Part shown: positions 15,571-35,896 of the stretch, piece after piece | How the letters are laid out: each line of letters starts with the position of its first letter | How positions within the stretch are numbered: position 1 is the stretch's first letter | Source: an uncultured bacterium | GTDB taxonomy: Bacteria; Fidelibacterota; JAANXI01 | Assembly (NCBI GenBank): GCA_964413425.1 | Contig: CAYPST010000001.1 | Coordinates: forward strand, 25,942-89,941 | Length of the DNA: 64,000 nt | Direction of reading: 5' to 3' | Made by a program: the position numbers and the translations under genes | The notes under the pieces: generated by a model | Database searches by the model: none | Seen by the model: the letters and a program-made list of their open reading frames with translations, nothing else | What the model was told of the DNA's origin: nothing

Positions 15571-17640
15571 TCATAACAATCCGCTCCTCCGGCGTATCCA
15601 CCAGTCGACCGCAAACATCACTACCAACACCCCCCAAATCCAATGGGCGGATCGTAACCGCAAAGCGTGCTGGCGTGTCTCCCGGATGTTCGGTGCTTCG
15701 GAAACCCGGGTCATCGGGAAATCCCGCATATCCGACAATGATTCCCCGGAATAACGGGTACTGAGGTTTTGTAACTGCTCGGGATTCCCCTGGGTGCCAC
15801 TCGTCTCGAGATTGATTTCCGGTATCCGGAACACTGCGGACATAACTTCCAGAGTATCAACAGGCGTGTAGGCCCTGGTCCGAAGCCGGTATTCCCCGGG
15901 GACGCGTATTTTTTCCTGATACATGTACATCTCACCATCCCGGGAAAACAATCCCCGGTGAGCGATCTGTCCGGTGGAATCCACCACCTCTCCTAACACT
16001 TTTGCGATCTCGACCGGCTGCATAGCGGTCGTATAGACTTGCGCTTCCGCACGTAGTGAATTTTGCGCATCCACCTCCGTCCAGACCTGCAGTCTGTCAG
16101 AAGGGGAGGTTTGCAATATCCAATACAACAGCTGAGCCAGGGTCGCCCGGTACGGATGTTCCGGGAATATCTGGCTGTTGCCCCTCCCTTCCATCTGTTG
16201 TTTCGCGAAATCCCATCGCCATAAATGCTGCCCGAGAATACGGATCATCTTCGGATCGGTACTCTCATGGAACGTAATAACCGGAGCGCCTGATGCTCTG
16301 CCGCGTAATGCCACTCTCTGCGATTGCTGTGCCAATCCGGGGGCCGGCAGTGTCCAGATGGGCGGTAATTGTTCCCAGGCCGACATACGCCGAATCACAG
16401 ACAGCAGGGGATTATCCGTCCGGTTGGCAATTTGCACTCCTTCCTCCATCCAATCATTGGAATTGGAAGGATTCGGTCCTGCTATCTGCCCCCGGGAGTC
16501 GGCTTGCAGGAGAATGCCTCGCAGATCAGATTGGTCTCGTGCTCTGGTGATGATATCCGAACCGCCGGCCGGGCGGCCGATTACATACACAATATCGGCC
16601 AGCGCAAACAGTGAATCCAGTGCTGATTGCGGTGATAACGTCGCATAAAACGTGTCCAACGAGAAACGCTCCATCTGCCGGATGGCCTGCCCTGCAAATC
16701 GCGTTTCATAGGAGGGGGTCTCAGCGTATAAGAGCACCTGATAGCGGGAGGGCCGAACTCTGATCTGACGTCTGGAGACATTATTTGTCTTATGTTGTTC
16801 CCCCGGGAGTGTATCGATCCGGCCGACTATTTGATAGTCTCCGGGATCGGAGAGAACAAACATTTCCGTCATCTCCCGGCTGTAGGATCCGGGAGAAAAA
16901 ACCAGGGACTCCGCAGCATGATGATAAGAATTCGAATTCACTCGAAAATTCAGCGTGCTCTCCCGCGGAAGCCGTTCCACCGTAAACTGCAACTGTGTCC
17001 GGATAGAATCTCCGGCATACGCGACCCGGGGAAGCATCATCTGCTCTAACCGGATGTCGGGAGCCACAGCAGAGTCGCCAACAAAATGGGTATAGACGGG
17101 GATGTGAGCCGCCGCCCCGGGAGTGATCGATCCCGGGAGTACTCCACTGTTATGACTGCCATCACTCACAATGAAGGCTGCCCGAATATTATTTGCACGC
17201 TGATGCTCCCTCATGTGGAAAAGCGGCAGGCTCAGGTTCGTCAATTGTTCGTCAAACTCCAGCGCCGAAATGCCATTCACCTGGTGTACGTCACTGTCGA
17301 AAGAGTACAGGGTATAGTTCACATTCTGTTGATCGAATTGATCCAGCAGAGATTGGAGTACGCTGTGTACCCGGTCAGCATCGTCCTGCATACTCTGGGA
17401 ATTATCCACATAGATGGCGACCACCGGAGGCAGGGAGCGTGAAGTTTGCCAGAGCGCCTGCAGGTTCACGGTGAGCAGTACCAGGACAACCAGGCCCATC
17501 ATTCTGATGGTACGTAAAACAACTGCAATCCGGCGCTCTGCAATTTTGCGCAAATAATAGGTGCTCCACCACCAGAAAGTGAGTCCTCCGGCGAGGACGA
17601 TGAGTGTAATCCAGGCCGAATCTGTGAGTAACCGGAACAT
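15571..17640 (-). CDS. von Willebrand factor type A (VWA) domain-containing membrane protein (BatA-like)
   Basis: About 690 aa from an internal Met; two N-terminal TM helices; MIDAS motif DNSQS; the start chosen at 17640 abuts the tsaD stop codon. Confidence 0.6.
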   Translation of the reverse strand: MFRLLTDSAWITLIVLAGGLTFWWWSTYYLRKIAERRIAVVLRTIRMMGLVVLVLLTVNLQALWQTSRSLPPVVAIYVDNSQSMQDDADRVHSVLQSLLDQFDQQNVNYTLYSFDSDVHQVNGISALEFDEQLTNLSLPLFHMREHQRANNIRAAFIVSDGSHNSGVLPGSITPGAAAHIPVYTHFVGDSAVAPDIRLEQMMLPRVAYAGDSIRTQLQFTVERLPRESTLNFRVNSNSYHHAAESLVFSPGSYSREMTEMFVLSDPGDYQIVGRIDTLPGEQHKTNNVSRRQIRVRPSRYQVLLYAETPSYETRFAGQAIRQMERFSLDTFYATLSPQSALDSLFALADIVYVIGRPAGGSDIITRARDQSDLRGILLQADSRGQIAGPNPSNSNDWMEEGVQIANRTDNPLLSVIRRMSAWEQLPPIWTLPAPGLAQQSQRVALRGRASGAPVITFHESTDPKMIRILGQHLWRWDFAKQQMEGRGNSQIFPEHPYRATLAQLLYWILQTSPSDRLQVWTEVDAQNSLRAEAQVYTTAMQPVEIAKVLGEVVDSTGQIAHRGLFSRDGEMYMYQEKIRVPGEYRLRTRAYTPVDTLEVMSAVFRIPEINLETSGTQGNPEQLQNLSTRYSGESLSDMRDFPMTRVSEAPNIRETRQHALRLRSAHWIWGVLVVMFAVDWWIRRRSGLL

Positions 17641-18644
17641 CAGAGCGACGAGATACTTAATCGTGGTTCGGTAGTGAAATGCAGCGTCGTGGGGCGGTCG
17701 TGCTTCAACGCCATCCAACCCGCATATGCAATCATAGCTCCGTTATCGGTGCAGTATTCAAATGCGGGATAAAACACCTGCACGTCCAGCGTTTCACTCA
17801 GTTCGATCATTCGCCGGCGCAATCGGGAATTCGCGGCTACTCCGCCGGCAATCGTCACACGGGTAATCCCGGTGCATTCCACCGCCTGTTCAATTTTTGT
17901 CACCAGAGAATCAATCACAGCGGCCTGGAAACTGGCGCAGAGATCCGAAATCTGTTGACGCCGGGGCTCTTCATCCAGCGATTCGATGGTATAGAATACT
18001 GCGGTTTTTAATCCCGAGAAACTGAAATTTAAGTCACCGGAATCGATCATGCCTCTGGGAAAGTCATAGGCCTCCACATTACCATTCCGGGCATATTTGT
18101 CGATATACGGACCGCCCGGATATCCGAGATCCAGCAGCCGTGCTATTTTATCGAAGGCCTCTCCGGCAGCATCGTCGATTGTGGTTCCCAGGATCTTGTA
18201 TGCTCCGTAGGCGTCCACCTGGATAATCTGGGTGTGGCCTCCGGAGACCAGCAGACAGAGGAACGGATACGTCAGGTCCGGATTGTCAATAAAATTCGCC
18301 AGCAGGTGAGCCTCGATATGGTTGACAGAGATAATGGGCAACGCATTGCGGAGTGCCAGGCCTTTCCCGAAGCTCACGCCCACCAATAACGAGCCCATCA
18401 ATCCGGGCCCGGCAGTCACGGCGATACCATTCACGGCCGGCAATGAGATTCCCGCTGCGGTAAGCGCCGATTCGGTAATATGCGCCAGGAGCCGTTCGTG
18501 CTCTCGCGATGCCACTTCAGGGACCACTCCGCCGTATTCACCATGCACCTGCTGCGACGCAATGATATTACTGCGGACTGCGCCCTCCTCAACCACGCCC
18601 ACTGATGTTTCATCACACGATGTCTCAATTCCCAACACAACCAT
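17640..18644 (-). CDS. tsaD: tRNA N6-adenosine threonylcarbamoyltransferase
   Basis: 334 aa; Kae1/TsaD signatures (GIETSCDETS, metal-binding HIEAH). Confidence 0.9.
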   Translation of the reverse strand: MVVLGIETSCDETSVGVVEEGAVRSNIIASQQVHGEYGGVVPEVASREHERLLAHITESALTAAGISLPAVNGIAVTAGPGLMGSLLVGVSFGKGLALRNALPIISVNHIEAHLLANFIDNPDLTYPFLCLLVSGGHTQIIQVDAYGAYKILGTTIDDAAGEAFDKIARLLDLGYPGGPYIDKYARNGNVEAYDFPRGMIDSGDLNFSFSGLKTAVFYTIESLDEEPRRQQISDLCASFQAAVIDSLVTKIEQAVECTGITRVTIAGGVAANSRLRRRMIELSETLDVQVFYPAFEYCTDNGAMIAYAGWMALKHDRPTTLHFTTEPRLSISSL

Positions 18645-20037: not shown

Positions 20038-22248
20038 CTATGATTTGTCTTCGTTTTCAGAACTCATCTCTTCTGCTGCCTCGGTGTCCTCTTCATCTTC
20101 GGCCTGAGTTTTCTCCTCTGCCTCACCTTCCTCTTCACCCTCTGCTTCATCTGCGGAGGTCTCGGCTTGCTCCTCTTCCTTGTCGGCTTGCTCGTCGGCA
20201 GCTTGCCTGGTGTCCTTGTCCTGCTTTTCTTTCGCTGTGTCTTCCTGATCCTCGGACTCCGCTTCGGACCGCTCTTCGCCTTCCTTGATCGAGCGTCTGA
20301 CCTCTTCAGGTATTTCGATTTTTTCGGCCGTATCCGACTCCTGCGTCTTCAAGAACATATCCACGTTGTGCCGCTCTTTGTCCTGGATGAATTCATCACG
20401 CGACAGCACCACTTTTTTATCATCTTCATTGATATCAATCACCTTCAACTCCAGCGTATCGCCCACCTGGATATTCCGGGTCAGCTGCTTGCGATCTTGC
20501 TTGGCAATATGCGACAGTGGCACGATCCCTTCCACATCCAGATCCAGGGTAACGATAATGCCCTTGTTCAGGATCCGCTCCACTTTTCCTTCGGTGGTAG
20601 TGCCGATACTATAGCGCTCCTTGATCTGTGGCCACGGATCTTCTTCCACCTGTTTAAGTCCCAGAGATATTTTCCGCTCGTCTTTGGACACGTTCAGCAC
20701 CTTCACCTCCACTTCATCTCCTTTGGAAAGAATCTCCTTGGGATGGCGAATTTTTCTGGTCCAGGACATATCAGACACATGCACCAGCCCGTCGATCCCT
20801 TCTTCCAGTTCCACAAAGGCGCCAAACTGCGTGAGGTTGCGAACAATCCCGGTCACGATGGAGCCCGGTTTGAACCGCTGCTCGATTTCCTCCCAGGGAT
20901 CCGGTTCCAGCTGTTTGACACCCAGCGAAATCTTTTCTTCTTCCGGCTGCATATCCAGCACCTTGACATCAATCTCAGCTCCCAGCGAGAAGACTTCCGA
21001 CGGATGCTTGATATGCTTGACCCAGGAGATTTCGGAGATATGAACCAGGCCTTCAATGCCCTTCTCCAGTTCCACAAACGCCCCGTAATTGGTAATGCTC
21101 ACCACTTTCCCGGAGACTACCGAGCCCACCGGATACTTCTCTTCCACGTTCTCCCAGGGATGAGGTTGCAGTTGTTTAAGCCCCAGCGAAACCCGCTGCC
21201 TCTCCTCCTCATAATCGATCACCATCACATCGATCACGGCTTCCAGGTCAACCACTTCCGAGGGGTGGTTGACGCGTCCCCAGGATAAGTCTGTGATATG
21301 CACCAGGCCATCTATCCCCCCCAGGTCGACAAAGACGCCGAAGTCGGTGATATTTTTCACGCGGCCCTGCAGCACCTGGCCCACTTCGATATCTTTCAGC
21401 AGTTCCCGGCGGCGTTCCTTCAGATTTTCTTCTAACAGCACCTTGCGGGAGAGCACAACATTTTTCCGCGTTTCGTTGATTTTGACGATTTTAAAGTCGA
21501 AGGTCTGCCCCACATAGGCATCAAAATCCTGAATTGGCCGGACATCGATCTGGGATCCCGGCAGGAAGCAATTCACACCGTTCACATCGACCATCATTCC
21601 ACCCTTCACCCGGCGAATGATGGTGCCTTCCACCACCTCATCCTTGGCAGCGGCCTCACTGACTGTCTCCCACTGCTTCATAAAGTCCGCTTTCTTTTTC
21701 GAAAGAATCAGCTGACCTTCCTCATCTTCCAGGATGTCCAGAAATACGTCCACATCACTGCCAACTTCGGGCGCGTCTTCCTCGTCAAATTCTTCAATCG
21801 GGATGATACCTTCGGCCTTGAAACCAATATCGACAACGACCTCCCGCTCGTTTATCGCAATGACCCGACCGCTCGTTATCTGATTTTCTCCAATATCACG
21901 TAAGGTCCCCTCCATGAGTGTCCGAAGTTGCTGCGTCTCCTCATCTTCTTCCTCACGCTCTTCCTCTAATTTGTCCTTGGGCACCGTCCGGATCTCATCC
22001 AACTCCATGATGCCGAAGTCCGGGGGATCCGACTGCCCGTTACTCTCGGATTGTGAGACCGACTCGCTTTCCTCGGATTCCTGCGACGGCACATCCGCCG
22101 CCTGGTCGTCGGTTTCCGTATCTTGTGCATCAGGTGCCGGGTCCTGGGACCCTGACTGCTGTTTATCTTCGTCCACAACTTCGGTAGTCGTCTCCTGTTC
22201 CTGGGATTCGTCATCCCGGGCTTGTTGTTTCTTTTCTTCTTCACTCAT
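20038..22248 (-). CDS. rpsA: 30S ribosomal protein S1 with long acidic N- and C-terminal extensions
   Basis: 736 aa; six tandem S1 (OB-fold) domains; start overlaps the cmk stop (classic cmk-rpsA arrangement); about 115-aa N-terminal and about 110-aa C-terminal D/E-rich low-complexity tails. Confidence 0.9.
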   Translation of the reverse strand: MSEEEKKQQARDDESQEQETTTEVVDEDKQQSGSQDPAPDAQDTETDDQAADVPSQESEESESVSQSESNGQSDPPDFGIMELDEIRTVPKDKLEEEREEEDEETQQLRTLMEGTLRDIGENQITSGRVIAINEREVVVDIGFKAEGIIPIEEFDEEDAPEVGSDVDVFLDILEDEEGQLILSKKKADFMKQWETVSEAAAKDEVVEGTIIRRVKGGMMVDVNGVNCFLPGSQIDVRPIQDFDAYVGQTFDFKIVKINETRKNVVLSRKVLLEENLKERRRELLKDIEVGQVLQGRVKNITDFGVFVDLGGIDGLVHITDLSWGRVNHPSEVVDLEAVIDVMVIDYEEERQRVSLGLKQLQPHPWENVEEKYPVGSVVSGKVVSITNYGAFVELEKGIEGLVHISEISWVKHIKHPSEVFSLGAEIDVKVLDMQPEEEKISLGVKQLEPDPWEEIEQRFKPGSIVTGIVRNLTQFGAFVELEEGIDGLVHVSDMSWTRKIRHPKEILSKGDEVEVKVLNVSKDERKISLGLKQVEEDPWPQIKERYSIGTTTEGKVERILNKGIIVTLDLDVEGIVPLSHIAKQDRKQLTRNIQVGDTLELKVIDINEDDKKVVLSRDEFIQDKERHNVDMFLKTQESDTAEKIEIPEEVRRSIKEGEERSEAESEDQEDTAKEKQDKDTRQAADEQADKEEEQAETSADEAEGEEEGEAEEKTQAEDEEDTEAAEEMSSENEDKS

Positions 22249-22975
22249 GCAGAGTAACCTCCTGTAATTCCTTCTTCTTTACTTGTTCGACGATCATATC
22301 CACCTGCTCTTCGATAGAAAGATTCGTCGTGTCAATCAGGATGGAATCTTTGGCAATCCGGAGCGGTGATTCTTCCCGTTCTGAATCCCGTCGATCCCGA
22401 TCTATCAATTCATGTTTTACCGTTTCCACATCAATCTCAATCCCCTGGTCGAACAGCTGGTGCTGCCGCCGTTCAGCGCGTGTGTCAATATTGGCATCAA
22501 TGTAAAATTTCAACTCCGCATTGGGCAGCACCCGGGTGCCAATATCGCGACCTTCCATCACCACGCCGCCCTCTTCCGCCAGGGATCGCTGCAAATTCAC
22601 CAAAATTGCCCGGACACCGGGAATTTCACTCACTTGCCCTACGGCTTTATCAACTCTGGGTTCCCGAATTTTCTCGGTCACGTTCTTCCCGTTGAGCAAA
22701 ACTTCCAGTTGATCACCCGAGCGGGTGAACTGAATCTGCACCTCTGCCGCTTCTTTCACAATCTGCGACTTGTCTTTGAGGGGAACAGCATTATTCAGGA
22801 TGTGCAGGGTAATGGCGCGATACATTGCACCGGTGTCCACATAGGTGTACCCAAGCCTCTGCGCACTCAGACGAGCAGTAGTACTCTTTCCCGACCCAGA
22901 GGGACCATCAATTGCTATAGTTAGTTTTTTCCTCATTAAGCCTTTGAATTTAGAAGATTCATAAATCGATTGCAA
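22241..22975 (-). CDS. cmk: cytidylate kinase
   Basis: 244 aa; P-loop GPSGSGKST; CMP-kinase motifs. Confidence 0.9.
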   Translation of the reverse strand: MQSIYESSKFKGLMRKKLTIAIDGPSGSGKSTTARLSAQRLGYTYVDTGAMYRAITLHILNNAVPLKDKSQIVKEAAEVQIQFTRSGDQLEVLLNGKNVTEKIREPRVDKAVGQVSEIPGVRAILVNLQRSLAEEGGVVMEGRDIGTRVLPNAELKFYIDANIDTRAERRQHQLFDQGIEIDVETVKHELIDRDRRDSEREESPLRIAKDSILIDTTNLSIEEQVDMIVEQVKKKELQEVTLHE

Positions 22976-23061: not shown

Positions 23062-24771
23062 CTATTTCATTCGCGCCCCTCCCTCTTCTCTGTCAAGAAT
23101 CCAGCTCACAACCGGTCCCAATTCACTGGGATCCGAATCGAATTCATACTTGCGCCGGTGGTAATATTCGGATGAAAAATTCACCGCCCCATCGCCGTCC
23201 AGTTCTTCCAGCAGCTGGGTGATCCGCTCATGCCACTTCTCCATATTGCTCTTCCGAAGATCCAGCCATCCGTTATCCGCCCAGTAATTCACCCGTTCCG
23301 GTGTTGATTCAAACCTATCCACCCCTTCGAACCGCGGAAAACTCAATACGGGACCACGCATGAATGTGTTCCCTGCCGGGAGCAGAATCCCGGTACCTAT
23401 CGAGAGGATAATCTGCCGTAAGGGATCATCCTGGCGTAATATTTCCAGCATCTCTCTGGAGAGAGTTTCAGGCGAATATTGAGGTATACTCCGAATATCA
23501 CCGGCGATTCGCTTCAATAAATAGATTTCATACAGTAACTTGGTAATCATCGGCGGTCCCAGCAGCTCGAAGGCAATCGATTTGCTCTCATACTCCTCTT
23601 CCAGTTCACGCATTTTCTTAATCGCCGTGTTCCGGAGCGTTCCGCCCCGGTAGGATGGATTCAGCACCGCAGCATCCAGCGCACTGACAATATCCGTGCC
23701 GGTATTCCCCCCTTTAATTTCCATGAGCACCTTGGAGGCAATCTCTTCCGGCGTCACAAATTCCATTAATCCCTCAGCTGTGATCACCGCGAACTCCCCT
23801 GTGGAATAGTACCCGTTTTCCCCGGCATCGATATACACTGACTCTACCACCTGATTGGGCAGTTCCACCCAGTATTTTTCCGGATACCGCTCGAGATAAT
23901 CATCCACCAGATGTGCCCACTCCACCTTACAGTCGTACATGGGGATATAGGTTCCATGCCGGCGAATTTTCCCGTGCCCGATTTCTTTCCAGCCAATAGC
24001 CGCGGCAGGCTTTATCTCCTTGATTATCGGGCCGTCCGGGGTTCGGCCCATGAGAAACAACAGCATGGAATGGGCCCCGGCTACCGAAGATTTGCTCAGC
24101 AGCAGCTTGGAAGGCTTCTCTTCACTGTGGGTGAACGGCACATTCAACCCCATGCCGCCGGTGCCGGTGGTCCCAATTTTCAGATAACACTCGGTCTTAT
24201 ATTCGGCCATGGCCAGATGTAATATTTGAACATGACGAATGAGCTGCGGGATATACTGAGAAGCAATGAGTTGCTCCAGATCTCCCACCAGTTCTGAGGA
24301 ATATTCCTGCGTTCCATCCTGTTCCTTCAATTCATTTCGAATCTCCGCCACCTTCTCAAATAAATTCTGATATGCAAAGGCGGTCGCCGTATTGATACAG
24401 TCGATAATGATGTGCGGCCGAAACGTTCGGATTAACCGGTATAAGTAGGAGGACTCCAGGACATCATCGCTCAGGTCGTCATAGAGGTCTGCAATGAGCA
24501 TCTCCCGCAATTCGGGATCCTCGTACATGTCACCGCGGGGGACATCTTTCATGGACTCCCGGACAAAGATATCGCCCCATTCCCCGGAAATTTTGCTGTT
24601 ATATTTGTCCCCGAGCGGCTGGAGAATCTCCAGAACCTCGTTAATTTCTTCCTGCCGCAGCGAGGTAACCACCAATTCACCGGGAGCCTCGGTCAGCAGT
24701 TGTTTACTGATGGCACGTCCCACCAATCCCCAGCCACCGAATACCATTAATCGCTTTCCCTGGATGTCCAT
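23062..24771 (-). CDS. uncharacterised protein with N-terminal NAD(P)-binding Rossmann-like motif
   Basis: 569 aa; glycine-rich GGWGLVG near the N-terminus, otherwise no motif I can place; embedded in the scpAB-rluB-cmk-rpsA housekeeping operon. Confidence 0.5.
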   Translation of the reverse strand: MDIQGKRLMVFGGWGLVGRAISKQLLTEAPGELVVTSLRQEEINEVLEILQPLGDKYNSKISGEWGDIFVRESMKDVPRGDMYEDPELREMLIADLYDDLSDDVLESSYLYRLIRTFRPHIIIDCINTATAFAYQNLFEKVAEIRNELKEQDGTQEYSSELVGDLEQLIASQYIPQLIRHVQILHLAMAEYKTECYLKIGTTGTGGMGLNVPFTHSEEKPSKLLLSKSSVAGAHSMLLFLMGRTPDGPIIKEIKPAAAIGWKEIGHGKIRRHGTYIPMYDCKVEWAHLVDDYLERYPEKYWVELPNQVVESVYIDAGENGYYSTGEFAVITAEGLMEFVTPEEIASKVLMEIKGGNTGTDIVSALDAAVLNPSYRGGTLRNTAIKKMRELEEEYESKSIAFELLGPPMITKLLYEIYLLKRIAGDIRSIPQYSPETLSREMLEILRQDDPLRQIILSIGTGILLPAGNTFMRGPVLSFPRFEGVDRFESTPERVNYWADNGWLDLRKSNMEKWHERITQLLEELDGDGAVNFSSEYYHRRKYEFDSDPSELGPVVSWILDREEGGARMK

Positions 24772-24772
24772 G

Positions 24773-25522
24773 TCACCCTCCTGCTTTCAGGGATCGAACT
24801 TCTTGCTGAGATAATTTTCTATACTCTCCCGGTGCCAGAGGCTCACACCCGAGTCCGGCAAACCGGCTCCGATGCAGTCGGGTTACGGTACAATTCAACG
24901 CACCAAAAATCCGTTTCACTTCGTGATATCGACCTGCACGCAGGGTAAGGGTCGCGATCCCCTGGTCATCCGATTGTTGTTGCCCCTGTAAAGTCCCCCG
25001 GGCGGGCAGATCTTCGCCAATGTCGACCCCCGCCTTCAGGCGTGCAGCAGCGTCTGCAGGCAGCACTCCCTCATACCAAACCTGATAAGTGCGCGGAACT
25101 TCCTTAGAGGGATGCGTGAGCTGATTGGCCAGGTCCCCATCATCGGTGAGCAGAAGTACTCCGCTGGTATCATAATCTAACCGTCCCACCGGGAAAATGC
25201 GTCGATCAGTGGGGATGAGATCCACCACGGTTTCTCTTCCCCGGGGATCATCGACGGTTGAAATGACGTGCTGAGGTTTATGAAGCACATAGTAAACGAA
25301 GGCGTCCGGGAGCGTAACCGCTTTTCCGTCGACCTCCACTCTATCCTTCCCGGGATCCACCCGGATACCAAATTCAGTGACGGTTTGCCCGTTCACTGTC
25401 ACGCGTTGCTCAGCGATAAGCGAATCCGCTTTTCGGCGGGACGTAACCCCGCACCGGGCGAGATACTTATTGATTCGCACTTTGATTGACAGACTTTCCC
25501 TCATTCGGAAGCGTTTCCACAT
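24773..25522 (-). CDS. rluB: pseudouridine synthase, RsuA/RluB family (S4 domain + catalytic domain)
   Basis: 249 aa; N-terminal S4 RNA-binding domain (RINKYLARCGVTSRRKAD); catalytic Asp motif GRLDYDTSGVLLLT. Confidence 0.85.
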   Translation of the reverse strand: MWKRFRMRESLSIKVRINKYLARCGVTSRRKADSLIAEQRVTVNGQTVTEFGIRVDPGKDRVEVDGKAVTLPDAFVYYVLHKPQHVISTVDDPRGRETVVDLIPTDRRIFPVGRLDYDTSGVLLLTDDGDLANQLTHPSKEVPRTYQVWYEGVLPADAAARLKAGVDIGEDLPARGTLQGQQQSDDQGIATLTLRAGRYHEVKRIFGALNCTVTRLHRSRFAGLGCEPLAPGEYRKLSQQEVRSLKAGG

Positions 25523-26069
25523 GTTCTTCGGCGATATCTTCCGATTGAAGGGTCAGTTGATCTATTTCTTTCAGTTTCGGAAGATCATCGAGACTGTTCA
25601 GGCCGAAATAGCGTAAAAACTCCTCAGAGGTTCCATAGAGCAGGGGACGCCCGGGCTGATCTTCCCGGCCCCTGACCACGATTAAATCCCGCTCCAGAAG
25701 GGTTCGGAGCACAGCATCGCTGTTGACGCCCCGAATCGCATCAATATTCGGGCGGCTGATCGGTTGTTTATAGGCAATGATGGACAGCGTTTCCAGCGCT
25801 GCCTGGGATAAACGCATCCGGCTGGAACCGACATATAACTTTTTGACAAACGGTTCGAATTCTTTATGGGTGACCAACTGATAGCCACCGGCTACCTGAA
25901 TGATGGTAAATGCACGATCGGTTTTGCCGTAATGGGTGTTTAACTCTTCGATAATCTCTGCAACAGGAATAGCCTCATCCGTATCGACACATTCCTTAAT
26001 CCTGGCTGCTGTGAGTGGTTTATCCGAGGAAAATAACAGGGCTTCTACAATTTGTCGGAGATAATCCAT
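25467..26069 (-). CDS. scpB: segregation and condensation protein B
   Basis: 200 aa; tandem winged-helix ScpB signature (VEALLFSS..., IIAYKQPISRPNIDAIRGV). Confidence 0.85.
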   Translation of the reverse strand: MDYLRQIVEALLFSSDKPLTAARIKECVDTDEAIPVAEIIEELNTHYGKTDRAFTIIQVAGGYQLVTHKEFEPFVKKLYVGSSRMRLSQAALETLSIIAYKQPISRPNIDAIRGVNSDAVLRTLLERDLIVVRGREDQPGRPLLYGTSEEFLRYFGLNSLDDLPKLKEIDQLTLQSEDIAEEHVETLPNEGKSVNQSANQ

Positions 26070-26088: not shown

Positions 26089-26823
26089 TTATGCGTGCGC
26101 CTGCTGTTTTCGCCGCTCTACCCGGAAATCACTGAAATTCTCTGACTGGATAACCAGAATCTGCTGCAGTTTGATCAAATCCAGCAAGGCGATGAAGGTG
26201 ACGATGATGGTTAATTTGTCTGAAAGTTCCTGAATCACTTCCGAAAATTTGAACGCCCCGGATTTCTGCAGTTTATTCCTGAGATATTCCTGCTGTTTCC
26301 GAATGTTCACATCGTAGCGCCGGACCCGGTGGACCGGCTGATCTTCGACTGACTGCAGCAGGTGCCGGAAGGTCTTCATCAGGTCATACAATGTGACTTC
26401 GCCGAGCACTTCTTCCGGTTTAATGTCCGTATCAATTCGTGAATAATCCGGCTGTCGGGAATAATACTTCCGTTGCTCCTCTTCCAGCTCTTTGAGTGTG
26501 CCGGCGGTTTCCTTAAACCGTTTGTACTCCAGCAACATTTCCACCAGCTCAGACCGCGGATCCTCATACTCTTCCTCCTCATCATTATCCGCCAGCTGGG
26601 GAAGAAGGGTTCTCGCCTTGATACGCATCAGCGTGGCTGCCATCCGGATATATTCGCCGGCAATCCCGATGTTTAACTGCCGCATGAGATCCAGATAGCC
26701 GAGATACGATTCGGTGATCTTGGAAATAGGAATATCATAGATATCAATCTCATCCCGCTGGATAAAGAAAAGCAGAAGATCCAGGGGGCCTTCAAAAATA
26801 TCTAACTTCACCTGATACGACAT
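26089..26823 (-). CDS. scpA: segregation and condensation protein A
   Basis: ScpA/kleisin N-terminal motif (FEGPLDLLL...I); start assigned to the internal Met MSYQVKLD rather than the longer ORF start at 26919. Confidence 0.8.
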   Translation of the reverse strand: MSYQVKLDIFEGPLDLLLFFIQRDEIDIYDIPISKITESYLGYLDLMRQLNIGIAGEYIRMAATLMRIKARTLLPQLADNDEEEEYEDPRSELVEMLLEYKRFKETAGTLKELEEEQRKYYSRQPDYSRIDTDIKPEEVLGEVTLYDLMKTFRHLLQSVEDQPVHRVRRYDVNIRKQQEYLRNKLQKSGAFKFSEVIQELSDKLTIIVTFIALLDLIKLQQILVIQSENFSDFRVERRKQQAHA

Positions 26824-26875
26824 TGAATAGTATATCCTGTGTATCTTCGGAGATACAATGAAAACTTCTGTGATG

Positions 26876-27394
26876 TTATCCCAGAAAAATATACGGCTTC
26901 CATGACTGGATCGGTTCACCGATATGTTGCTGTAAGAACTGCACGTAGTGTGGTTTTTTCGGTTTTTTCTGCAGGGGCATTTCTGCCTGCTCCGGGGTGC
27001 GATCCCCTTTCACGTTATTACACCGGACACAGGCAGTCACCAGATTTTCCCAGGTATCCTTGCCGCCATGCCGTTTCGGAATCACATGATCCAGGGTCAG
27101 CTGCACATCCTTCTTGCCGCAGTATTGGCATCGGAACCCATCCCGGCGCATAATATTCTTCCGCGACAGGACGATTTCATAGCCCCGGTAATTGATGTAC
27201 CGCTTCACGCGAACAACCGTGGGCAACGGAAATGTTCGATCCACCGTATGAATCACGGCTCCATCGCTTTCAACCATTTCAGCCTTCTGCAAAAACAGCA
27301 TGACCATTGCCCGCTTGACGTCGCAAATTTGCAGCGGTTCATAGTTCTGGTTTAAGACCAAGACCTGCCGATTTAATATGCCATTTCCTTGCAT
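26876..27394 (-). CDS. HNH endonuclease
   Basis: 172 aa; HNH motif with Zn-binding cysteines (CQYCG...LDHVIP...N...CVRCN). Confidence 0.8.
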   Translation of the reverse strand: MQGNGILNRQVLVLNQNYEPLQICDVKRAMVMLFLQKAEMVESDGAVIHTVDRTFPLPTVVRVKRYINYRGYEIVLSRKNIMRRDGFRCQYCGKKDVQLTLDHVIPKRHGGKDTWENLVTACVRCNNVKGDRTPEQAEMPLQKKPKKPHYVQFLQQHIGEPIQSWKPYIFLG

Positions 27395-28334: not shown

Positions 28335-30149
28335 TCAGTTCCAGAACTGCCACCGTACCCCAAGAAAGAAGACGGGAAAATGCGCGCGCTGATCCAGGGC
28401 ATATCGTAACTGGTAAGCCAGGATGTTGTAGAATGATGTGGAAAGAGTGAAGGGGCCGACCTCTCCGATGAGGTACAAATGGATACAGGCACTGGCGGCC
28501 GGCGCGGCAAGGCCCGGATAATACGTTATACTCTGAATCGCCGGGCTCCAGCCTGAGGGCTGCCGTGAAAAATACATTCCATTCTCCACATAGAGATGCA
28601 GCAGCAGATTGTTCTGAAAGAGATACCGCTGGAGGTGCAGCCAGCTGGTCACTGATTGCCTGCTCCACAATTCCGGCACCACCTGGGTCATCTGGGGATA
28701 ACTGATGTATTGCGATCCCAGGGAAAGCCAGGGAAAGGGGTCGATTCCAACCCGGGAATGCAGCCCGATGAGTCGTCCGGCACTCTGGCGTGCCATCAGT
28801 GAGGTGCCTGCGTCGCCGGCGGAAGATGCATGTATCAGGGTATACCAATCCTGAAAACGTATATGTTCAGCAATGAATTGGAGAGAGCTCCAGTCGGTTA
28901 CCTGGAATTCCACTCCCGCCTGCAACCGGTCCAGCCGGGTCAGAGCAGGCCTGCCATTCCTTTCCAGAAGAGGGTTCTCTCCATAGCTCCATTGCCGGGG
29001 CGGCGCGGAGACTTCCCGGCGGTACCTCCCGGTGACCGTTAAAATATCCCACCATGAATAGGAAATCCGGAACTCTGGTAACAGGAGGAGATCCCATCGG
29101 GAGACTCTGTTGAGGCCTATCTGCGTTGCCCCGGCTTCCAGGTTTACATTTGATCCCTGGTAGTAGGCACGAAATCGGAGGTGATGCCAGTGCTCGTCAG
29201 TCCTGGGAGTGGTCTCCGACTGGTGCTGGAAGATATTGTATCGATAGAATAATTCGGACAGCAGCAAGCCCCCCAGGGAGGCACGCGCACCAATCCAGCC
29301 GCCCCGCTGTACCTCCATTAATTGGGTTGTGCCGGCGGTCCGGTTCAGCCAGAGCCGGTGAGAACCCAGGTTCAAACCACCATACAGGGTGCCGAGGTGA
29401 TGAGTGGTTCGCCATTCCAGCTGGTTATAATACCAGCTGCTGAATTCATCTCCGATCTGTTGCATATTCGGTAAAGCGGTGGTCCAGTTCAGCTGATCTC
29501 TGGTATAAAAGGTATTATAGAAAAATATAGTCGAATCACTCACCTGATGATGCACTGCAGCATAATATCTCTCGTTCTCCAACCCTTCCAATGCGTAAGG
29601 TCCGACATATCCCTCACCTTCTCTGGCCAGATGCAGATGAGTCTGTTCCGTGATATCGGCAGCCAGGCTGATGGAGAGATCATTCAGAGCGTAATCGCCT
29701 TTTTTATAGGCCACATTTACCAGGGGCTCTTCTCCCTTCTCCAGAATATGCGTTCGGAGAGGATATTGGAGTTGACCATCCTCCCGGAACCGAAACCCGA
29801 TGATGGCGTGCTCGGGAAAATATCGGGAAGGGATGGTTGGACGCAGCCTGGTGCGAATCCGATGGTTTTGAATGTATATGACATTCCCGTATTGCGGACC
29901 GGTGACCCCCTGCCAGAAGCCGGTGTTTCCGGTCTCTTCGCGCGGAAAAAAACCGGGAGGATGCATAATCATCAATTCATGCAGCCGCGAACGTATGGCA
30001 ATCGGTACGGTCTCTGTATCGAGAATGATTTGCGTGCTGTCCGGCTCCCGGATATGCAGAGAATCTACACTTTGTGCTCTTATCCGGATCGGAGCTAATG
30101 CCAGAATGGCAAAAAGAATTGTGGCAACGCGTCTGTTTGAAGAACTCAT
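28335..30149 (-). CDS. outer-membrane beta-barrel protein (hypothetical porin-like)
   Basis: 604 aa; cleavable signal peptide; alternating amphipathic beta-strand pattern; C-terminal aromatic residues (...RWQFWN) as in beta-barrel OMPs. Confidence 0.5.
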   Translation of the reverse strand: MSSSNRRVATILFAILALAPIRIRAQSVDSLHIREPDSTQIILDTETVPIAIRSRLHELMIMHPPGFFPREETGNTGFWQGVTGPQYGNVIYIQNHRIRTRLRPTIPSRYFPEHAIIGFRFREDGQLQYPLRTHILEKGEEPLVNVAYKKGDYALNDLSISLAADITEQTHLHLAREGEGYVGPYALEGLENERYYAAVHHQVSDSTIFFYNTFYTRDQLNWTTALPNMQQIGDEFSSWYYNQLEWRTTHHLGTLYGGLNLGSHRLWLNRTAGTTQLMEVQRGGWIGARASLGGLLLSELFYRYNIFQHQSETTPRTDEHWHHLRFRAYYQGSNVNLEAGATQIGLNRVSRWDLLLLPEFRISYSWWDILTVTGRYRREVSAPPRQWSYGENPLLERNGRPALTRLDRLQAGVEFQVTDWSSLQFIAEHIRFQDWYTLIHASSAGDAGTSLMARQSAGRLIGLHSRVGIDPFPWLSLGSQYISYPQMTQVVPELWSRQSVTSWLHLQRYLFQNNLLLHLYVENGMYFSRQPSGWSPAIQSITYYPGLAAPAASACIHLYLIGEVGPFTLSTSFYNILAYQLRYALDQRAHFPVFFLGVRWQFWN

Positions 30150-32104: not shown

Positions 32105-33505
32105 TCACATCAACAGCTGAATCTTCTCCACGTACCCATCCGCATCGAATTTCCGCTTCAACCCATTCGCATTCATATACCGGACCTTCCCGTAGACGGG
32201 ACGTTCTTTCCATCCCTGGTCATGATTACCGAAGCACCAGGCAACCCCGGCATAGCCGTTGGGATCCCGTCCGTCGAGTTCGTACTTGTTATTTAAATAG
32301 AGTGCAATATCATACGCTCTTCCCGGATGCTCCGTCCACTCCAGGATCTTCTTCCCCCAGTACATCCGCATGTATCCGTGCATTTTCCCGGTAAGAACCA
32401 TTTCCATCTGAGCGGCATTCCAGTAAGGATCATGGGTCTCTGCTCTCTCAAATTCTCCCGGGGAGTACATATATTCACGCGTATCTTCTGCATGTTCGGA
32501 CAGAGTTACCCCAGCCCACTGTGGCAGGCAGGAAAATTCATCGTAATTTTCGGTGTAATAACAAAAATTCACGCTCAGTTCCCGCCGCACAATCAACTCT
32601 TCCAGGTAAGGGTCTTTGCCCGGACTTTCAGTCTCCAGGATCTTCCCGGCGATATAGAGCGGAGAGATTTGGCCGAAACGGAGATAGGGACTCATGCGTG
32701 AGAGGGCGTCTTCCACCGGATTATTACGGTCGATATCATATCGATCCAGTTTCTTCGCGATGAAAGTATTCAACAAATCACGTGCACGGGAAGTCCCGCC
32801 CCGGAAGTGCTCAGTCGGTGTCACCGATCGATCAACGTCAAGTGCGTGCAGCACAGCAGAGATATCCGAAATGTCTGCAGACCGGATACTAGGGCCGACG
32901 GAGGGATTCCTCACCTCTTCCCGCGTTACCGGGTGGAGAAATTTATCCAGATGGCGGTGTATTTTTGGCCGGATGGTTCTGGCAGCATACTCGCGTTTCA
33001 AAGTAACTTCCTCCACCGGGACCACCACATCAGATTCCACCTGGAATAAGGGACAATCGATGTTCCCGGCAACCTCCCGGCGCCACTGCCTCTGGATGCG
33101 CGTGTACCCGCGATCGGTAACCATAAGTACTGCCCGCCGGGAAAATTCTATGGCAACCCGTTCCGGAGACTGATAACGAATGGCCATCTGAATTCCGCGC
33201 TCTCGTAATTTCTGCTGTGTTTCCTGAAGCCCTTCCAGCATGAACTTGTAATGCCGGGCATTGGCCTCAGGATACTCACCGGTAATGCCGAACACCACCA
33301 GCGGCGGCACATTCAAACGGTTCGCATGCTGAACGGCAAACTCCAGAGCGTGATTGTACTCCTCTCGCTGAGAAGCCTGCATCCAATAGATCACATACTT
33401 CCCGGACTGCCCTGTGTGATCAGTCAGTCTTTGAACCCGCTCGGTCGGAATCATCGCCTGCGCCTCTAATGAACTTTTCATTCTCCCGTCCTCCTCCCGT
33501 GTCAA
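32105..33505 (-). CDS. phr: deoxyribodipyrimidine photolyase (class II CPD photolyase-like)
   Basis: 466 aa; photolyase N-terminal alpha/beta domain and FAD-binding C-terminal domain (WN...M...HGYMRMYWGK). Confidence 0.8.
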   Translation of the reverse strand: MTREEDGRMKSSLEAQAMIPTERVQRLTDHTGQSGKYVIYWMQASQREEYNHALEFAVQHANRLNVPPLVVFGITGEYPEANARHYKFMLEGLQETQQKLRERGIQMAIRYQSPERVAIEFSRRAVLMVTDRGYTRIQRQWRREVAGNIDCPLFQVESDVVVPVEEVTLKREYAARTIRPKIHRHLDKFLHPVTREEVRNPSVGPSIRSADISDISAVLHALDVDRSVTPTEHFRGGTSRARDLLNTFIAKKLDRYDIDRNNPVEDALSRMSPYLRFGQISPLYIAGKILETESPGKDPYLEELIVRRELSVNFCYYTENYDEFSCLPQWAGVTLSEHAEDTREYMYSPGEFERAETHDPYWNAAQMEMVLTGKMHGYMRMYWGKKILEWTEHPGRAYDIALYLNNKYELDGRDPNGYAGVAWCFGNHDQGWKERPVYGKVRYMNANGLKRKFDADGYVEKIQLLM

Positions 33506-33976
33506 TCATCGGTCCTTTCCGAACCGGTGTCTGAGGATTTCCGCCCGGAAGTGAAAAATGTCGTTCAGGCGTTTCCGGACGACGAACTTATGCACCAATT
33601 CTCCTATTATGCTCAGCGGCATGGCATAATGGACAATATCTTCCATTCTGGTGCCAGAAGCGGTTTCCCGGAACAGATGCTGATGATGCCAGAACCGATA
33701 CGGTCCGAAGCGCTGTTCATCTACGAACATCTTCCCGGGATGAAAATGAGTGATTTCGGTAATCCATCGGAGGGAGACGCCGGGAAATACGCCAATTCGG
33801 TACGTGATTATCAGACCTGCATACATCTGATCAGGTACCTCCGAAGTGATGCGAAACCGCAGCCAGTCAGGTGTGATGTCAGCGAGATTCCCGGGATCAG
33901 AGAAGAAATTCCATGCCTCCGCTAACTCAACCGGCAGCAGCTGCGTGCGATGAATGCGATGAAGGTTCACGTTCAA
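33506..33976 (-). CDS. SRPBCC (START/polyketide-cyclase-like) family protein
   Basis: 156 aa; abuts the photolyase gene with no intergenic gap. Confidence 0.6.
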   Translation of the reverse strand: MNVNLHRIHRTQLLPVELAEAWNFFSDPGNLADITPDWLRFRITSEVPDQMYAGLIITYRIGVFPGVSLRWITEITHFHPGKMFVDEQRFGPYRFWHHQHLFRETASGTRMEDIVHYAMPLSIIGELVHKFVVRKRLNDIFHFRAEILRHRFGKDR

Positions 33977-34037
33977 TCAGTTCCAACCTTTCCTGCCTCG
34001 AATGATACTTCAGTTATCAGAAGCTACAGTTATAATT

Positions 34038-34733
34038 TCACTTTAAAAGCACCAACCCGAAATAGAGTATCTGGGCAAAAAATATATGCTTTGCTAACAT
34101 AGGCGCCTGATTCGGTACGGCATTGAACCGCAGACCGAGAACCGTGAAGAACAGACTTATTACGAACCAGGCGGTGTAATTCCGGAGCGGAATGCCCCCG
34201 CCAAACCAATGCCAGTACCCCAGTGTGACAGCCACTTGCTCCAGAAGGAAATCAAACAGGACCATCGACACTGCAATCAAAAGTCCCCGGAGCAGCCATT
34301 TCTGTTGTGTATTTTTCACAAGCCAGTCAACAACGCCGTTTGACGCCAGAAGCATCCCCAGCCATGCGAAACCGATTGCCAGGGGTACTCCCCGAATCAC
34401 CGGCCGGAGCACCTGGCCGTATTGATACTTTCCAAAAATTACGCCCGTTTGCGCCCCAATTAGTTCTACGAAAAAACTTGCGCCCAGCACAAAGAAGCTC
34501 CAGGCAATGAATACCAGACGACTGTGAGTCGACAGAATCCGATAATACTCACCTGCTAACCATATCCCGAGAACGATAATAACCGGCCCAGCCAGAATTC
34601 TCATGGTATCCTGCAATATTCCCAGGAGATGCCAGAACCCGCCGGCCAGGAGTATAAAGTAGAGCGCTCCGAGCTTGATCCGGGATATATGCTCCCGGTT
34701 GAATCCTCTCCGGATAAACCCGAATCTCCTCAT
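34038..34733 (-). CDS. membrane carotenoid biosynthesis protein, CruF-like (putative carotenoid 1',2'-hydratase)
   Basis: Polytopic membrane protein of about 230 aa from the internal Met at 34733 (the longer ORF would overlap the upstream gene by 86 nt); position in the carotenoid operon next to GT2 and acyltransferase genes mirrors cruF in Salinibacter/Rhodothermus clusters; assignment by context. Confidence 0.5.
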   Translation of the reverse strand: MRRFGFIRRGFNREHISRIKLGALYFILLAGGFWHLLGILQDTMRILAGPVIIVLGIWLAGEYYRILSTHSRLVFIAWSFFVLGASFFVELIGAQTGVIFGKYQYGQVLRPVIRGVPLAIGFAWLGMLLASNGVVDWLVKNTQQKWLLRGLLIAVSMVLFDFLLEQVAVTLGYWHWFGGGIPLRNYTAWFVISLFFTVLGLRFNAVPNQAPMLAKHIFFAQILYFGLVLLK

Positions 34734-34767
34734 ATCTTCCGTATGTTCCTGTCTTGTTAGCCAGCCA

Positions 34768-35889
34768 TTAAGGCGAGTGAAGAACAATGTCCCGCCCCTT
34801 CCAGTGTATAACCCCTTTCTTGACTTGCCGGTAGGAATCCACACTGATGACAAGCGTTAACAGGACCGCTACCGGATGCAGCAGAACACTTAGCAAAATG
34901 GGATGCCGAAACCGCAGAGCCAGCCCGCCCCTGATAAGCACATTCACAGCGATTGCTGCCCCTGAAAGCAACGCAAATGGCCGGAACCATATCACCGCGT
35001 AAGGGGCGATGGCCGTCAGCAACATCAGCGGCACAGCGACCCAGAAGAGCACGCTGTTATAGCCGGTCAATCCGAACATGATTTTCGTCATACCCTCCCG
35101 GGTCTCCTGCATTGTGCGGTACATTCTGGCAAATACCACCCCGGTCCCGGCTGCCGTCATCATCCGGATCCCGGCGGCTTTGGCCTTCCGGGCCAGCTCA
35201 ACATCTTCAACTATTTCTACGCGAACAGCCTGATGTCCTCCCAGCGATTGATACATGTCCCGCGTACATGCCAGCCATTGTCCGTTGGCTGCCGATAAAG
35301 ACGGAGCCGAAAACCGCAAGACAGCCCAGAGGGGCAGAGTACTGTAGAGAATCACGTCTATCATCGGTACCAGGAGTTTTTCCGGAACCGTCCGGGTTAT
35401 CTGCTGCGGAAATGCAGAAAATAATCCAAGATTACGCTGCTGCATCCATGCGATCGTCCTGGTCACTGCATCCGGAGCACACCAGTTATCCGCATCCGTG
35501 AAAATGAGCACCTCACCGCCCGCCACCTGACTCAATTGATGACAGGCCCAATTTTTTCCGGTCCAGCCAGGGGGTACCGGCTCCCCCCGTATCAGGGTGA
35601 TATTCGAATGGCGGGCAGCATACTCTTCTACCAACTCGCCGGTTTTATCTTCCGACCGGTCATCCAGCACCAGAATTTCCAGGGGTTCATAATTCTGCCG
35701 CACCAATCCCTCCAGGCACCGACTGATATTGCTGGCCTCATTCCGGGCCGGGACCAGCAACGAAACCTTTACCTGCTCAAGGACTGCTCCGCTCTGGCTC
35801 AACTGCGGGCCCCAAATAATATTCATGTACGAAATGAGCAGCAGGATGAAAAGCAGGGCGAAAATAACTGAAGCAAAGTACAACATCAC
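34768..35889 (-). CDS. family 2 glycosyltransferase (CruC-like carotenoid glycosyltransferase)
   Basis: 373 aa; N-terminal TM helix; GT-A fold motifs (LVPARNE, DD, TDADN DxD motif); C-terminal TM helices. Confidence 0.7.
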   Translation of the reverse strand: MMLYFASVIFALLFILLLISYMNIIWGPQLSQSGAVLEQVKVSLLVPARNEASNISRCLEGLVRQNYEPLEILVLDDRSEDKTGELVEEYAARHSNITLIRGEPVPPGWTGKNWACHQLSQVAGGEVLIFTDADNWCAPDAVTRTIAWMQQRNLGLFSAFPQQITRTVPEKLLVPMIDVILYSTLPLWAVLRFSAPSLSAANGQWLACTRDMYQSLGGHQAVRVEIVEDVELARKAKAAGIRMMTAAGTGVVFARMYRTMQETREGMTKIMFGLTGYNSVLFWVAVPLMLLTAIAPYAVIWFRPFALLSGAAIAVNVLIRGGLALRFRHPILLSVLLHPVAVLLTLVISVDSYRQVKKGVIHWKGRDIVLHSP

Positions 35890-35896
35890 CGAAATC

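What the first reader, a model, noticed from the sequence alone, without database searches (positions are those of the whole stretch)
23062..24771. Large uncharacterised Rossmann-motif protein inserted into the conserved scpA-scpB-rluB-cmk-rpsA operon
The order scpA-scpB-pseudouridine synthase-cmk-rpsA is widely conserved. Here a 569-aa protein with only a GGWGLVG dinucleotide-binding-like motif and no other recognisable signature sits between rluB and cmk, with 1-nt and about 86-nt spacings, so it is probably co-transcribed. Its housekeeping context suggests a role in RNA or nucleotide metabolism or chromosome biology.
Basis: partly seen in the sequence, partly recalled or inferred. Interest (0 to 1): 0.55.

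Follow-up and report, generated by a model that had tools for sequence, protein, structure and literature searches.

The report
Ind2-family oxidoreductase in housekeeping operon
The 569-residue gene between rluB and cmk is real and conserved there across several bacterial phyla, but it belongs to a known family: it is a full-length relative of Ind2, the NADH-dependent keto-acid reductase of indolmycin antibiotic synthesis, so it is most likely a 2-oxo-acid reductase whose natural substrate is unknown.

The parts
23062..24771 (-). Gene X: 569-aa clade-A member of the Ind2 / PF27054 family (two-domain NAD(P)-dependent oxidoreductase)
   Evidence: ORF. At least 7,959 homologues, all tagged PF27054. 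31% identity end to end with Swiss-Prot-named Ind2, E 6e-71. hhalign probability 100% over 551 columns.
24007..24771 (-). N-terminal catalytic domain (about residues 1-255): atypical, extended-type SDR/Rossmann fold with helical insertions
24718..24738 (-). GGWGLVG dinucleotide-binding motif (residues 12-18; GxxGxxG)
   Evidence: G12, G15 and G18 are invariant across both clades.
24121..24186 (-). Family signature Y196-x-K-x-G-T-x-G-x-G-G-M-G-x-N-x-P-x-T-H-S-E217: the end of beta5 plus an inserted loop, the presumed active-site loop
   Evidence: Y196, G205 and G208 are invariant. K198, T201, G203, G206, M207, T214 and H215 are at least 90% conserved across clades A and B. The loop is modelled with low confidence (residues 204-221, pLDDT<50). 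Its catalytic role is inferred.
23065..24015 (-). C-terminal region (residues 253-569): a small beta-sheet subdomain plus an all-helical domain; includes the part Pfam calls Beta_methylindole_red_C
24776..24782 (-). AGGAGGG Shine-Dalgarno-like site inside the 3' end of rluB, 4 nt before the ATG of X
   Evidence: Read directly from the sequence.
24773..25522 (-). rluB-type pseudouridine synthase (S4 + PseudoU_synth_2), immediately upstream
   Evidence: Pfam. It is the same-strand upstream neighbour of X in 12 of 79 species loci.
25467..26069 (-). scpB
   Evidence: Pfam SMC_ScpB, 4e-58.
26089..26919 (-). scpA (the listed GTG start is probably too far upstream)
   Evidence: Pfam SMC_ScpA, 3e-39, matching residues 53-267.
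22241..22975 (-). cmk (cytidylate kinase), downstream; its true start is probably the ATG near 22936
   Evidence: Pfam Cytidylate_kin, 1.5e-72, starting at residue 20. Sequence.
20038..22248 (-). rpsA (six S1 domains, with long acidic N- and C-terminal tails)
   Evidence: Pfam S1, 5e-91, six stretches. Translation.

Best explanation
Gene X encodes a cytoplasmic, NAD(P)H-dependent carbonyl reductase of the Ind2 family. An atypical SDR-type Rossmann domain binds the nicotinamide cofactor through GGWGLVG and the DxINTAT (NNAG-like) motif. It carries a Thr201/Lys227 remnant of the SDR catalytic set but no catalytic Tyr. An inserted, invariant GGMG-N-P-THSE loop and a family-specific C-terminal domain of unknown fold are presumed to complete the active site and bind the substrate. 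By homology with Ind2, which reduces the 2-keto group of 3-methylindolepyruvate to the 2-hydroxy acid using NADH, the most likely reaction is reduction of a 2-oxo acid to a 2-hydroxy acid. The substrate is probably an amino-acid-derived aryl- or branched-chain pyruvate. The window protein belongs to a distinct, highly conserved clade (A) found as a chromosomal gene in Marinimicrobia, Calditrichota, KSB1, Ignavibacteria and relatives. This is not the antibiotic-cluster clade (B). In the window's lineage it is transcribed with, and translationally coupled to, rluB in the scpA-scpB-rluB-X-cmk-rpsA string.

Shown: that the gene is real, its family membership, the fold of the N-terminal half, the lack of any solved relative for the C-terminal half, the clade split, and the conserved synteny. 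Inferred: cofactor use, the 2-oxo-acid chemistry, the class of substrate, and co-transcription.

The confidence of 0.5 is for the 2-oxo-acid reductase reading as a whole. Family membership alone is about 0.95, and an aryl- or branched-chain substrate about 0.25.
For: Family membership: every close homologue carries PF27054 'Beta_methylindole_red_C'. P0319 is named 'Beta-methylindole-3-pyruvate reductase', S. griseus. It lies in a 90%-identity cluster whose representative sits in an ind0-ind8-ordered locus: trpS, methyltransferase, this protein, then six more genes. Window X against Ind2 gives 31% identity over 539 aa, E 6e-71, and hhalign probability 100% over 551 columns.

Biochemistry of Ind2: it is described as an NADH-dependent ketone reductase that converts 3-methylindolepyruvate to indolmycenic acid (PMC8246080; PMC5925218).

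Shared motifs across both clades argue for shared chemistry.

Context of clade A members outside the scpAB block: in L047 and L087, OFOR alpha/beta/gamma, an acetate/butyrate-kinase family gene, PTA_PTB and X lie on one strand. In L019 the string is POR gamma, PTA_PTB and X. In L032 it is PTA_PTB and X. An aldehyde dehydrogenase and/or a YbjQ-like gene lies upstream in 12 loci.

Context of clade B and the deep branches: trpS paralogues above the TIGR00233 cut-off sit next to X in L088, L093 and L095. L092 has an SNF transporter, X and a Pyridoxal_deC gene. L089 has a Zn-ADH, an aminotransferase, ispG and X.

Synteny and coupling. No terminator-like site in the gaps.
Against: 31% identity does not allow substrate, or even reaction type, to be transferred. 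Clade A differs from clade B at motif level: GGWGLVG against GA-GxIG, THSE-KPS against THGD plus a 2-3 residue insertion, and FELLGPP against GNLG-P. In the window, and in most clade A loci, no metabolic partner gene is adjacent. The OFOR/PTA_PTB contexts number only 4 of 79 loci. The very high conservation of clade A (63% mean column identity across phyla) and its housekeeping neighbourhood fit a core role more specific than a redox-sink keto-acid reductase. The catalytic proton donor is unidentified, since there is no YxxxK Tyr, and the signature loop is poorly modelled. Cofactor preference is not determined. No expression data were available, so co-transcription is inferred.
Confidence: 0.5

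Rival explanations
1. X acts on RNA or in ribosome/chromosome biology, for example as a reductase-type RNA modification enzyme or a partner of RluB or ScpAB. Its tight coupling to rluB would then reflect a shared pathway.
Confidence: 0.1
2. X is a nucleotide-sugar dehydratase or epimerase of the CapD/PglF 'polysaccharide biosynthesis protein' type, as some database records call it.
Confidence: 0.05
3. X fills a specific missing step of core metabolism in these phyla, as a non-orthologous replacement for a known NAD(P)-dependent 2-oxo/2-hydroxy-acid enzyme such as ketopantoate reductase, 4-phosphoerythronate dehydrogenase or a prephenate-related dehydrogenase. It would not be a general fermentative keto-acid reductase.
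For: Clade A is very highly conserved and widely distributed: at least 572 species genomes and 63% mean column identity. It has housekeeping neighbours in several lineages: rluB/cmk/rpsA, ispG/leuS in L089, hisS/lgt/rlmB in Ignavibacteria. A PanE homologue is proposed as the functional equivalent of Ind2 in chuangxinmycin synthesis (PMC5925218), so the chemistries are interchangeable. From general knowledge, aromatic amino-acid or PLP genes (serC, aroA, tyrA) precede cmk-rpsA in many proteobacteria.
Against: No phylogenetic-profile test could be run because whole genomes were not available. No pathway partner is adjacent in any locus examined. It is not a MurB replacement, since murB is present in the window.
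Confidence: 0.2

Closest known systems
Ind2, beta-methylindole-3-pyruvate reductase of Streptomyces griseus (indolmycin biosynthesis; Pfam PF27054 Beta_methylindole_red_C)
   Same: Same length (569 against 570 aa) and the same two-part architecture, aligned end to end (31% identity, E 6e-71; hhalign probability 100%). The two share GxxGxxG, DxINTAT, YxK-GT-G-GGMG-N--TH, K227, GEN, ME--T-EE, LGP and W-D-R motifs.
   Different: They fall in different clades of the family tree. The window gene is not in a biosynthetic cluster: there is no adjacent trpS resistance paralogue, C-methyltransferase or other ind genes. Motif-level differences lie around the signature loop (THSEEKP against THG(S/D) plus an insertion). 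The substrate is therefore probably not 3-methylindolepyruvate.
Short-chain dehydrogenases/reductases (SDR superfamily), e.g. AerF, MalC, FabG; extended SDRs such as PglF/CapD
   Different: Sequence identity is 12-15%, with no significant Pfam SDR hit. The catalytic Tyr is absent. There are large helical insertions (residues ~79-117 and ~137-190) and an inserted invariant loop (204-221). About 315 extra C-terminal residues have no solved structural relative.
Ketopantoate reductase PanE/ApbA-type and D-2-hydroxyacid dehydrogenase-type keto-acid reductases (e.g. CxnC, FldH)
   Same: Same proposed chemistry, NAD(P)H-dependent reduction of a 2-oxo acid to a 2-hydroxy acid. CxnC, a PanE homologue, is proposed to do the Ind2 step in chuangxinmycin synthesis (PMC5925218).
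   Different: Unrelated folds and families, with no sequence or structural match in any search here.

Membership tests
Ind2 / PF27054 family (beta-methylindole-3-pyruvate reductase-like) | Significant full-length sequence similarity to Ind2 itself | tested here: met
   BLASTP gives 31% identity over 539 aa, E 6e-71. hhalign gives probability 100%, E 2.5e-59, over 551 columns. Ind2 was identified by its source name and by the ind0-ind8 locus layout.
Ind2 / PF27054 family (beta-methylindole-3-pyruvate reductase-like) | Match to the Pfam PF27054 model | tested here: inconclusive
   The local Pfam copy lacks PF27054. The identical protein P0001 and all 120 listed homologues carry a precomputed PF27054.1 hit, so the match is indirect but strong.
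Ind2 / PF27054 family (beta-methylindole-3-pyruvate reductase-like) | Conservation of the family-wide invariant motifs | tested here: met
   All 13 invariant and 27 nearly invariant columns of the cross-clade alignment A2 are listed by their residue in the window protein.
Ind2 / PF27054 family (beta-methylindole-3-pyruvate reductase-like) | NADH-dependent reduction of 3-methylindolepyruvate (EC-level function) | not testable with these tools
   This needs an enzyme assay. The clade separation and the absence of ind-type neighbours argue against the same physiological substrate.
Ind2 / PF27054 family (beta-methylindole-3-pyruvate reductase-like) | Location in a TrpRS-inhibitor-type biosynthetic cluster (adjacent trpS paralogue and C-methyltransferase) | tested here: not met
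   There is no trpS anywhere in the 64-kb window and no methyltransferase or rSAM neighbour. This is a property of clade B, not of the protein family as such.
SDR superfamily | Rossmann fold with an N-terminal glycine motif, and structural similarity to SDRs | tested here: met
SDR superfamily | Catalytic Ser/Thr-Tyr-Lys (YxxxK) set | tested here: not met
   K227 is at least 90% conserved, but the position four residues before it is Leu in the window protein and variable in the family. T201 occupies the Ser position. The protein is therefore an atypical SDR at best.
SDR superfamily | Significant match to an SDR sequence model (adh_short, Epimerase, Polysacc_synt_2 ...) | tested here: not met
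   There is no Pfam hit below E 0.06. NCBIfam gives only E 0.023 over residues 4-52.
CapD/PglF nucleotide-sugar 4,6-dehydratases | Similarity beyond the first beta-alpha-beta, and a nucleotide-sugar-binding C-terminal subdomain | tested here: not met
   Profile hits cover residues 3-54 only. The C-terminal region has no PDB relative.

The most novel reading that the evidence does not exclude
Clade A of the Ind2 family is an undescribed core enzyme of several FCB-group phyla (Marinimicrobia, Calditrichota, KSB1, Ignavibacteria, Kapaibacteria, Kryptonia). It would be a 2-oxo/2-hydroxy-acid oxidoreductase with a C-terminal fold absent from the PDB. It would either replace a canonical step of central or cofactor metabolism, or link amino-acid keto-acid status to the translation/chromosome-maintenance operon in which it is embedded. 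The antibiotic enzyme Ind2 would then be a secondary-metabolism offshoot of this primary enzyme.
Probability: 0.2. Interest if true: 0.6.

Novelty: new member of a known kind. Interest (0 to 1): 0.35.

Why it matters
The family has a single characterised member, from an antibiotic pathway, and no solved structure. Yet the clade found here is a highly conserved chromosomal gene in at least several hundred species of environmentally abundant, mostly uncultured phyla. Knowing its substrate would fill a gap in metabolic reconstructions of Marinimicrobia, Calditrichota and Ignavibacteria. It would also show where the indolmycin enzyme came from and add a new substrate-binding fold to the SDR repertoire. 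For annotation, labels such as 'short-chain dehydrogenase' or 'polysaccharide biosynthesis protein' should be replaced by 'Ind2-family oxidoreductase, substrate unknown'.

Tried and rejected
1. Local Pfam, NCBIfam and PDB sequence searches with the single protein gave nothing significant. A profile search of the PDB hit only the first 50 residues of CapD-type enzymes.
2. The afdb50 Foldseek library was not available.
3. A full-text search for 'PF27054' found nothing, and 'beta-methylindole' found only irrelevant papers. The primary Ind2 paper (PMC4352800) is not held.
4. I looked for one operon partner shared by all clade A loci and found none. The upstream neighbour is a divergent ptsN-like gene in 27 loci, rluB in 12, and other genes elsewhere.
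5. I considered that trpS in the same string (trpS-scpA-scpB-rluB-X in 8 of 10 loci with scpA) echoes the trpS linkage of clade B. I rejected it as evidence because it is one inherited arrangement, the window itself has no trpS, and the clade B linkage is explained by self-resistance.
6. The 3HCDH-X 'fusion' of L091, flanked by crotonase and thiolase genes, was not used. That contig shows several split genes, so the fusion may be a frameshift artefact.
7. I first assumed that the PigC/PEP-synthase-like ligase of L093 corresponds to Ind3. The Streptomyces ind locus shows only a weak AMP-binding hit at the ind3 position, so I dropped the equation.
8. An Rfam scan of the whole window found no RNA element in the X-cmk gap or anywhere else.
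9. MurB replacement was rejected because murB is in the window.
10. Cofactor preference cannot be read from the residue after beta2. R39 aligns with an Arg in NADH-dependent Ind2 and varies within the family.

Full report
**Observation.** The ORF at 23062-24771 on the minus strand (ATG start, 569 aa) exists exactly as described. Pfam confirms its co-directional neighbours:
- ScpA, 26089-26919
- ScpB, 25467-26069
- an S4 + PseudoU_synth_2 (RluB-type) protein, 24773-25522
- cytidylate kinase, 22241-22975
- a six-S1-domain RpsA, 20038-22248

The rluB stop codon is followed by a single base and then the ATG of the gene, here called X. An AGGAGGG site lies 4 nt upstream of that ATG, inside rluB. 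The gap to cmk is 86 nt, or about 125 nt if cmk starts at its first ATG. Simple scans found no terminator-like or promoter-like site on the coding strand in these gaps. GC content matches the neighbours. An identical protein is on record from an NCBI contig of 122 kb, and the closest named relatives are Candidatus Marinimicrobia (72% identity).

**Family assignment.** The large protein collection returned at least 7,959 homologues. All of those listed carry a precomputed hit to PF27054.1, whose name is 'Beta_methylindole_red_C'. An exhaustive HMMER pass over 1.84 billion representatives found 791 clusters at 50% identity with E<=1e-3, and 231 with E<=1e-30.

I tested the implied link to Ind2 directly by searching with an actinomycete-like family member. 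That search recovered Micromonospora, Streptomyces and Polymorphospora proteins. One 90%-identity cluster contains P0319 (570 aa), which its sources name 'Beta-methylindole-3-pyruvate reductase', Streptomyces griseus. The representative of that cluster lies in a locus with the ind0-ind8 layout: trpS, a methyltransferase, this protein, then six further genes. The window protein aligns with P0319 from residue 1 to 520 at 31% identity (E 6e-71). The profile of its close relatives aligns with P0319 over 551 columns at probability 100%. The literature describes Ind2 as the NADH-dependent ketone reductase that converts 3-methylindolepyruvate to indolmycenic acid (PMC8246080; PMC5925218).

By inspection of the alignments, the following SDR features are present or absent:
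- The glycine motif is of the extended-SDR type (G12-x-x-G15-x-x-G18, invariant).
- DxINTAT (residues 124-130) corresponds to the NNAG motif.
- T201 occupies the catalytic Ser position.
- K227 occupies the lysine position of YxxxK.
- The tyrosine position is Leu and is variable in the family.

In place of the tyrosine, the family has an invariant inserted loop, G-G-M-G-x-N-x-P-x-T-H-S-E (residues 205-217). This loop is poorly modelled (pLDDT<50). I infer, but have not shown, that it carries the proton donor.

**Two clades.** A cross-family alignment shows that the signature motifs are shared by all members. A neighbour-joining tree splits the family into two groups.

Clade B contains Ind2, the actinomycete proteins and members from Clostridia and unclassified MAGs. 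Their genes sit next to trpS paralogues, all of which score above the curated TIGR00233 cut-off:
- L088: trpS-X, with B12-radical-SAM, carrier-protein, carbamoyltransferase and thioesterase genes.
- L093: trpS, X, a B12-rSAM gene and a second trpS, with a ligase-type gene nearby.
- L095: a Trp repressor, a chorismate-mutase-methyltransferase fusion and two trpS genes, one overlapping X by 11 nt.

These arrangements reproduce the logic of the indolmycin cluster: a resistant TrpRS, a C-methylase and the reductase. Another clade B gene lies between an SNF-family transporter and a Pyridoxal_deC-family decarboxylase.

Clade A contains the window protein and the proteins of Marinimicrobia, Calditrichota, KSB1, Ignavibacteria/Melioribacter, Kapaibacteria and Thermokryptus, plus deeper branches. 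It is strongly conserved, with 63% mean column identity among 36 members from different phyla.

**Genomic context of clade A.** In the 79 species loci where the gene and its flanks could be read:
- The immediate upstream gene is rluB on the same strand in 12 loci, with an 11-17 nt overlap in 9 of them.
- The downstream gene is cmk in 11 loci.
- These loci come from Marinimicrobia, Calditrichota, KSB1 and a few differently labelled MAGs.

The position between rluB and cmk is thus inherited across several phyla. It is not a recent insertion, and the translational coupling to rluB is conserved.

The position is not universal, however:
- In 27 loci, mostly Ignavibacteria, the gene is transcribed divergently from a ptsN-like, hisS, lgt and rlmB-like block, with variable downstream genes.
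- In L047 and L087 it is the last gene of a co-directional string: 2-oxoacid:ferredoxin oxidoreductase alpha, beta and gamma subunits, an acetate/butyrate-kinase family gene and a phosphate acyltransferase.
- In L019 and L032 it follows PTA_PTB.
- In 12 loci an aldehyde dehydrogenase and/or a YbjQ-like gene lies upstream.
- A deep-branching relative sits in a string of Zn-ADH, aminotransferase, ispG, X, GT2 and leuS.

The window itself holds no obvious metabolic partner. Within 64 kb I found cell-envelope, nucleotide-sugar, tRNA-synthetase, carotenoid and peptidase genes, but no aminotransferase of the aromatic type, no OFOR and no trpS.

**Interpretation.** The best-supported reading is an NAD(P)H-dependent carbonyl reductase that most likely converts a 2-oxo acid to a 2-hydroxy acid. 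It would use an atypical SDR domain together with a family-specific C-terminal domain. The chemistry is transferred from Ind2 and gains some support from the 2-oxoacid-fermentation contexts of a few clade A genes. The substrate is unknown. It is unlikely to be 3-methylindolepyruvate, given the clade split, the motif differences around the signature loop and the absence of ind-type neighbours.

My confidence by claim:
- Family membership: about 0.95.
- 2-oxo-acid reductase chemistry: about 0.5.
- An amino-acid-derived aryl or branched-chain substrate: about 0.25.

I keep it as a rival at about 0.1. A more interesting rival, at about 0.2, is that clade A replaces a specific canonical step of core metabolism. 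This would fit its conservation and housekeeping neighbourhoods. It could not be tested without whole-genome presence/absence data.

**Novelty and score.** The protein is a new, uncharacterised member of a family that is already defined (a Pfam model and one Swiss-Prot enzyme). I file it as a new member of a known kind. The points of real interest are three: the clade is a conserved chromosomal gene of several abundant uncultured phyla, its C-terminal half has no solved structural relative, and its only studied relative is an antibiotic-pathway enzyme. A specialist would find this worth an enzymology project but not very surprising. Interest: 0.35.

Noticed in passing
window 32105-43066: A carotenoid gene block on the minus strand: Caroten_synth-family protein 34038-34853, GT2 glycosyltransferase 34768-35889, acyltransferase 35897-36616, phytoene/squalene synthase 36761-37675 and two phytoene-desaturase-type amine oxidases 37680-40800. 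It is flanked by a DNA photolyase (32105-33505) and, on the opposite strand, a MerR-HTH + B12-binding regulator (42143-43066). The layout resembles a CarH-type light-controlled carotenoid glycoside-ester cluster in a Marinimicrobia-like genome.
   Followed up: partly
L004, L009, L012, L014, L017, L029, L078, L086 (about 2.7-3.9 kb in each locus): In most related loci a trpS gene sits directly upstream of scpA, giving trpS-scpA-scpB-rluB-X-cmk (8 of 10 species loci with scpA). The window lacks trpS anywhere in its 64 kb. Distant clade B relatives of X are next to trpS paralogues for a different, self-resistance reason. Whether the clade A proximity means anything is unexplained.
   Followed up: partly
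window 26876-27394: A 172-aa HNH endonuclease gene (HNH 3.5e-17, HNH_5 4.7e-17) lies between the NlpC/P60 gene and scpA. It overlaps the annotated scpA ORF start by 44 nt. The same HNH gene is found at that place in several Calditrichota and KSB1 loci (cluster 19), so it is a conserved resident and not a mobile insertion.
   Followed up: partly
window 20038-22248: RpsA is unusually long at 736 aa. It has highly acidic, low-complexity N-terminal (~100 aa) and C-terminal (~100 aa) extensions around six S1 domains.
   Followed up: no
window 1-64000: Extreme strand bias: 55 of 57 ORF-level genes are on the minus strand. Rfam found no RNA gene or element at gathering threshold anywhere in the 64 kb.
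   Followed up: no
L093/L094 4692-14720; L088 1-11438; L095/L096 710-8668: These look like uncharacterised indolmycin- or chuangxinmycin-like biosynthetic clusters in anaerobes and unclassified MAGs. They hold one or two extra trpS genes, an Ind2-family reductase and B12-radical-SAM or SAM methyltransferases. L093 also has a SAM_HAT_N-family gene and a PigC/PEP-synthase-like ligase. L095 has a TrpR repressor and a chorismate-mutase-methyltransferase fusion. They are candidates for new TrpRS inhibitors.
   Followed up: partly
L091 7001-9775: A 924-aa protein joins a 3-hydroxyacyl-CoA dehydrogenase (3HCDH) domain to a clade A-like X. It is flanked by enoyl-CoA hydratase and thiolase genes. The contig has several split genes, so the fusion may be a frameshift artefact. 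If real, it would link the family to acyl-CoA metabolism.
   Followed up: no
window 15571-17718 and 28335-30149: Two large ORFs (715 aa and 604 aa) flank the housekeeping string and have no Pfam hit at E<=1e-6. The 604-aa protein begins with a signal-peptide-like sequence and may be an outer-membrane protein.
   Followed up: no
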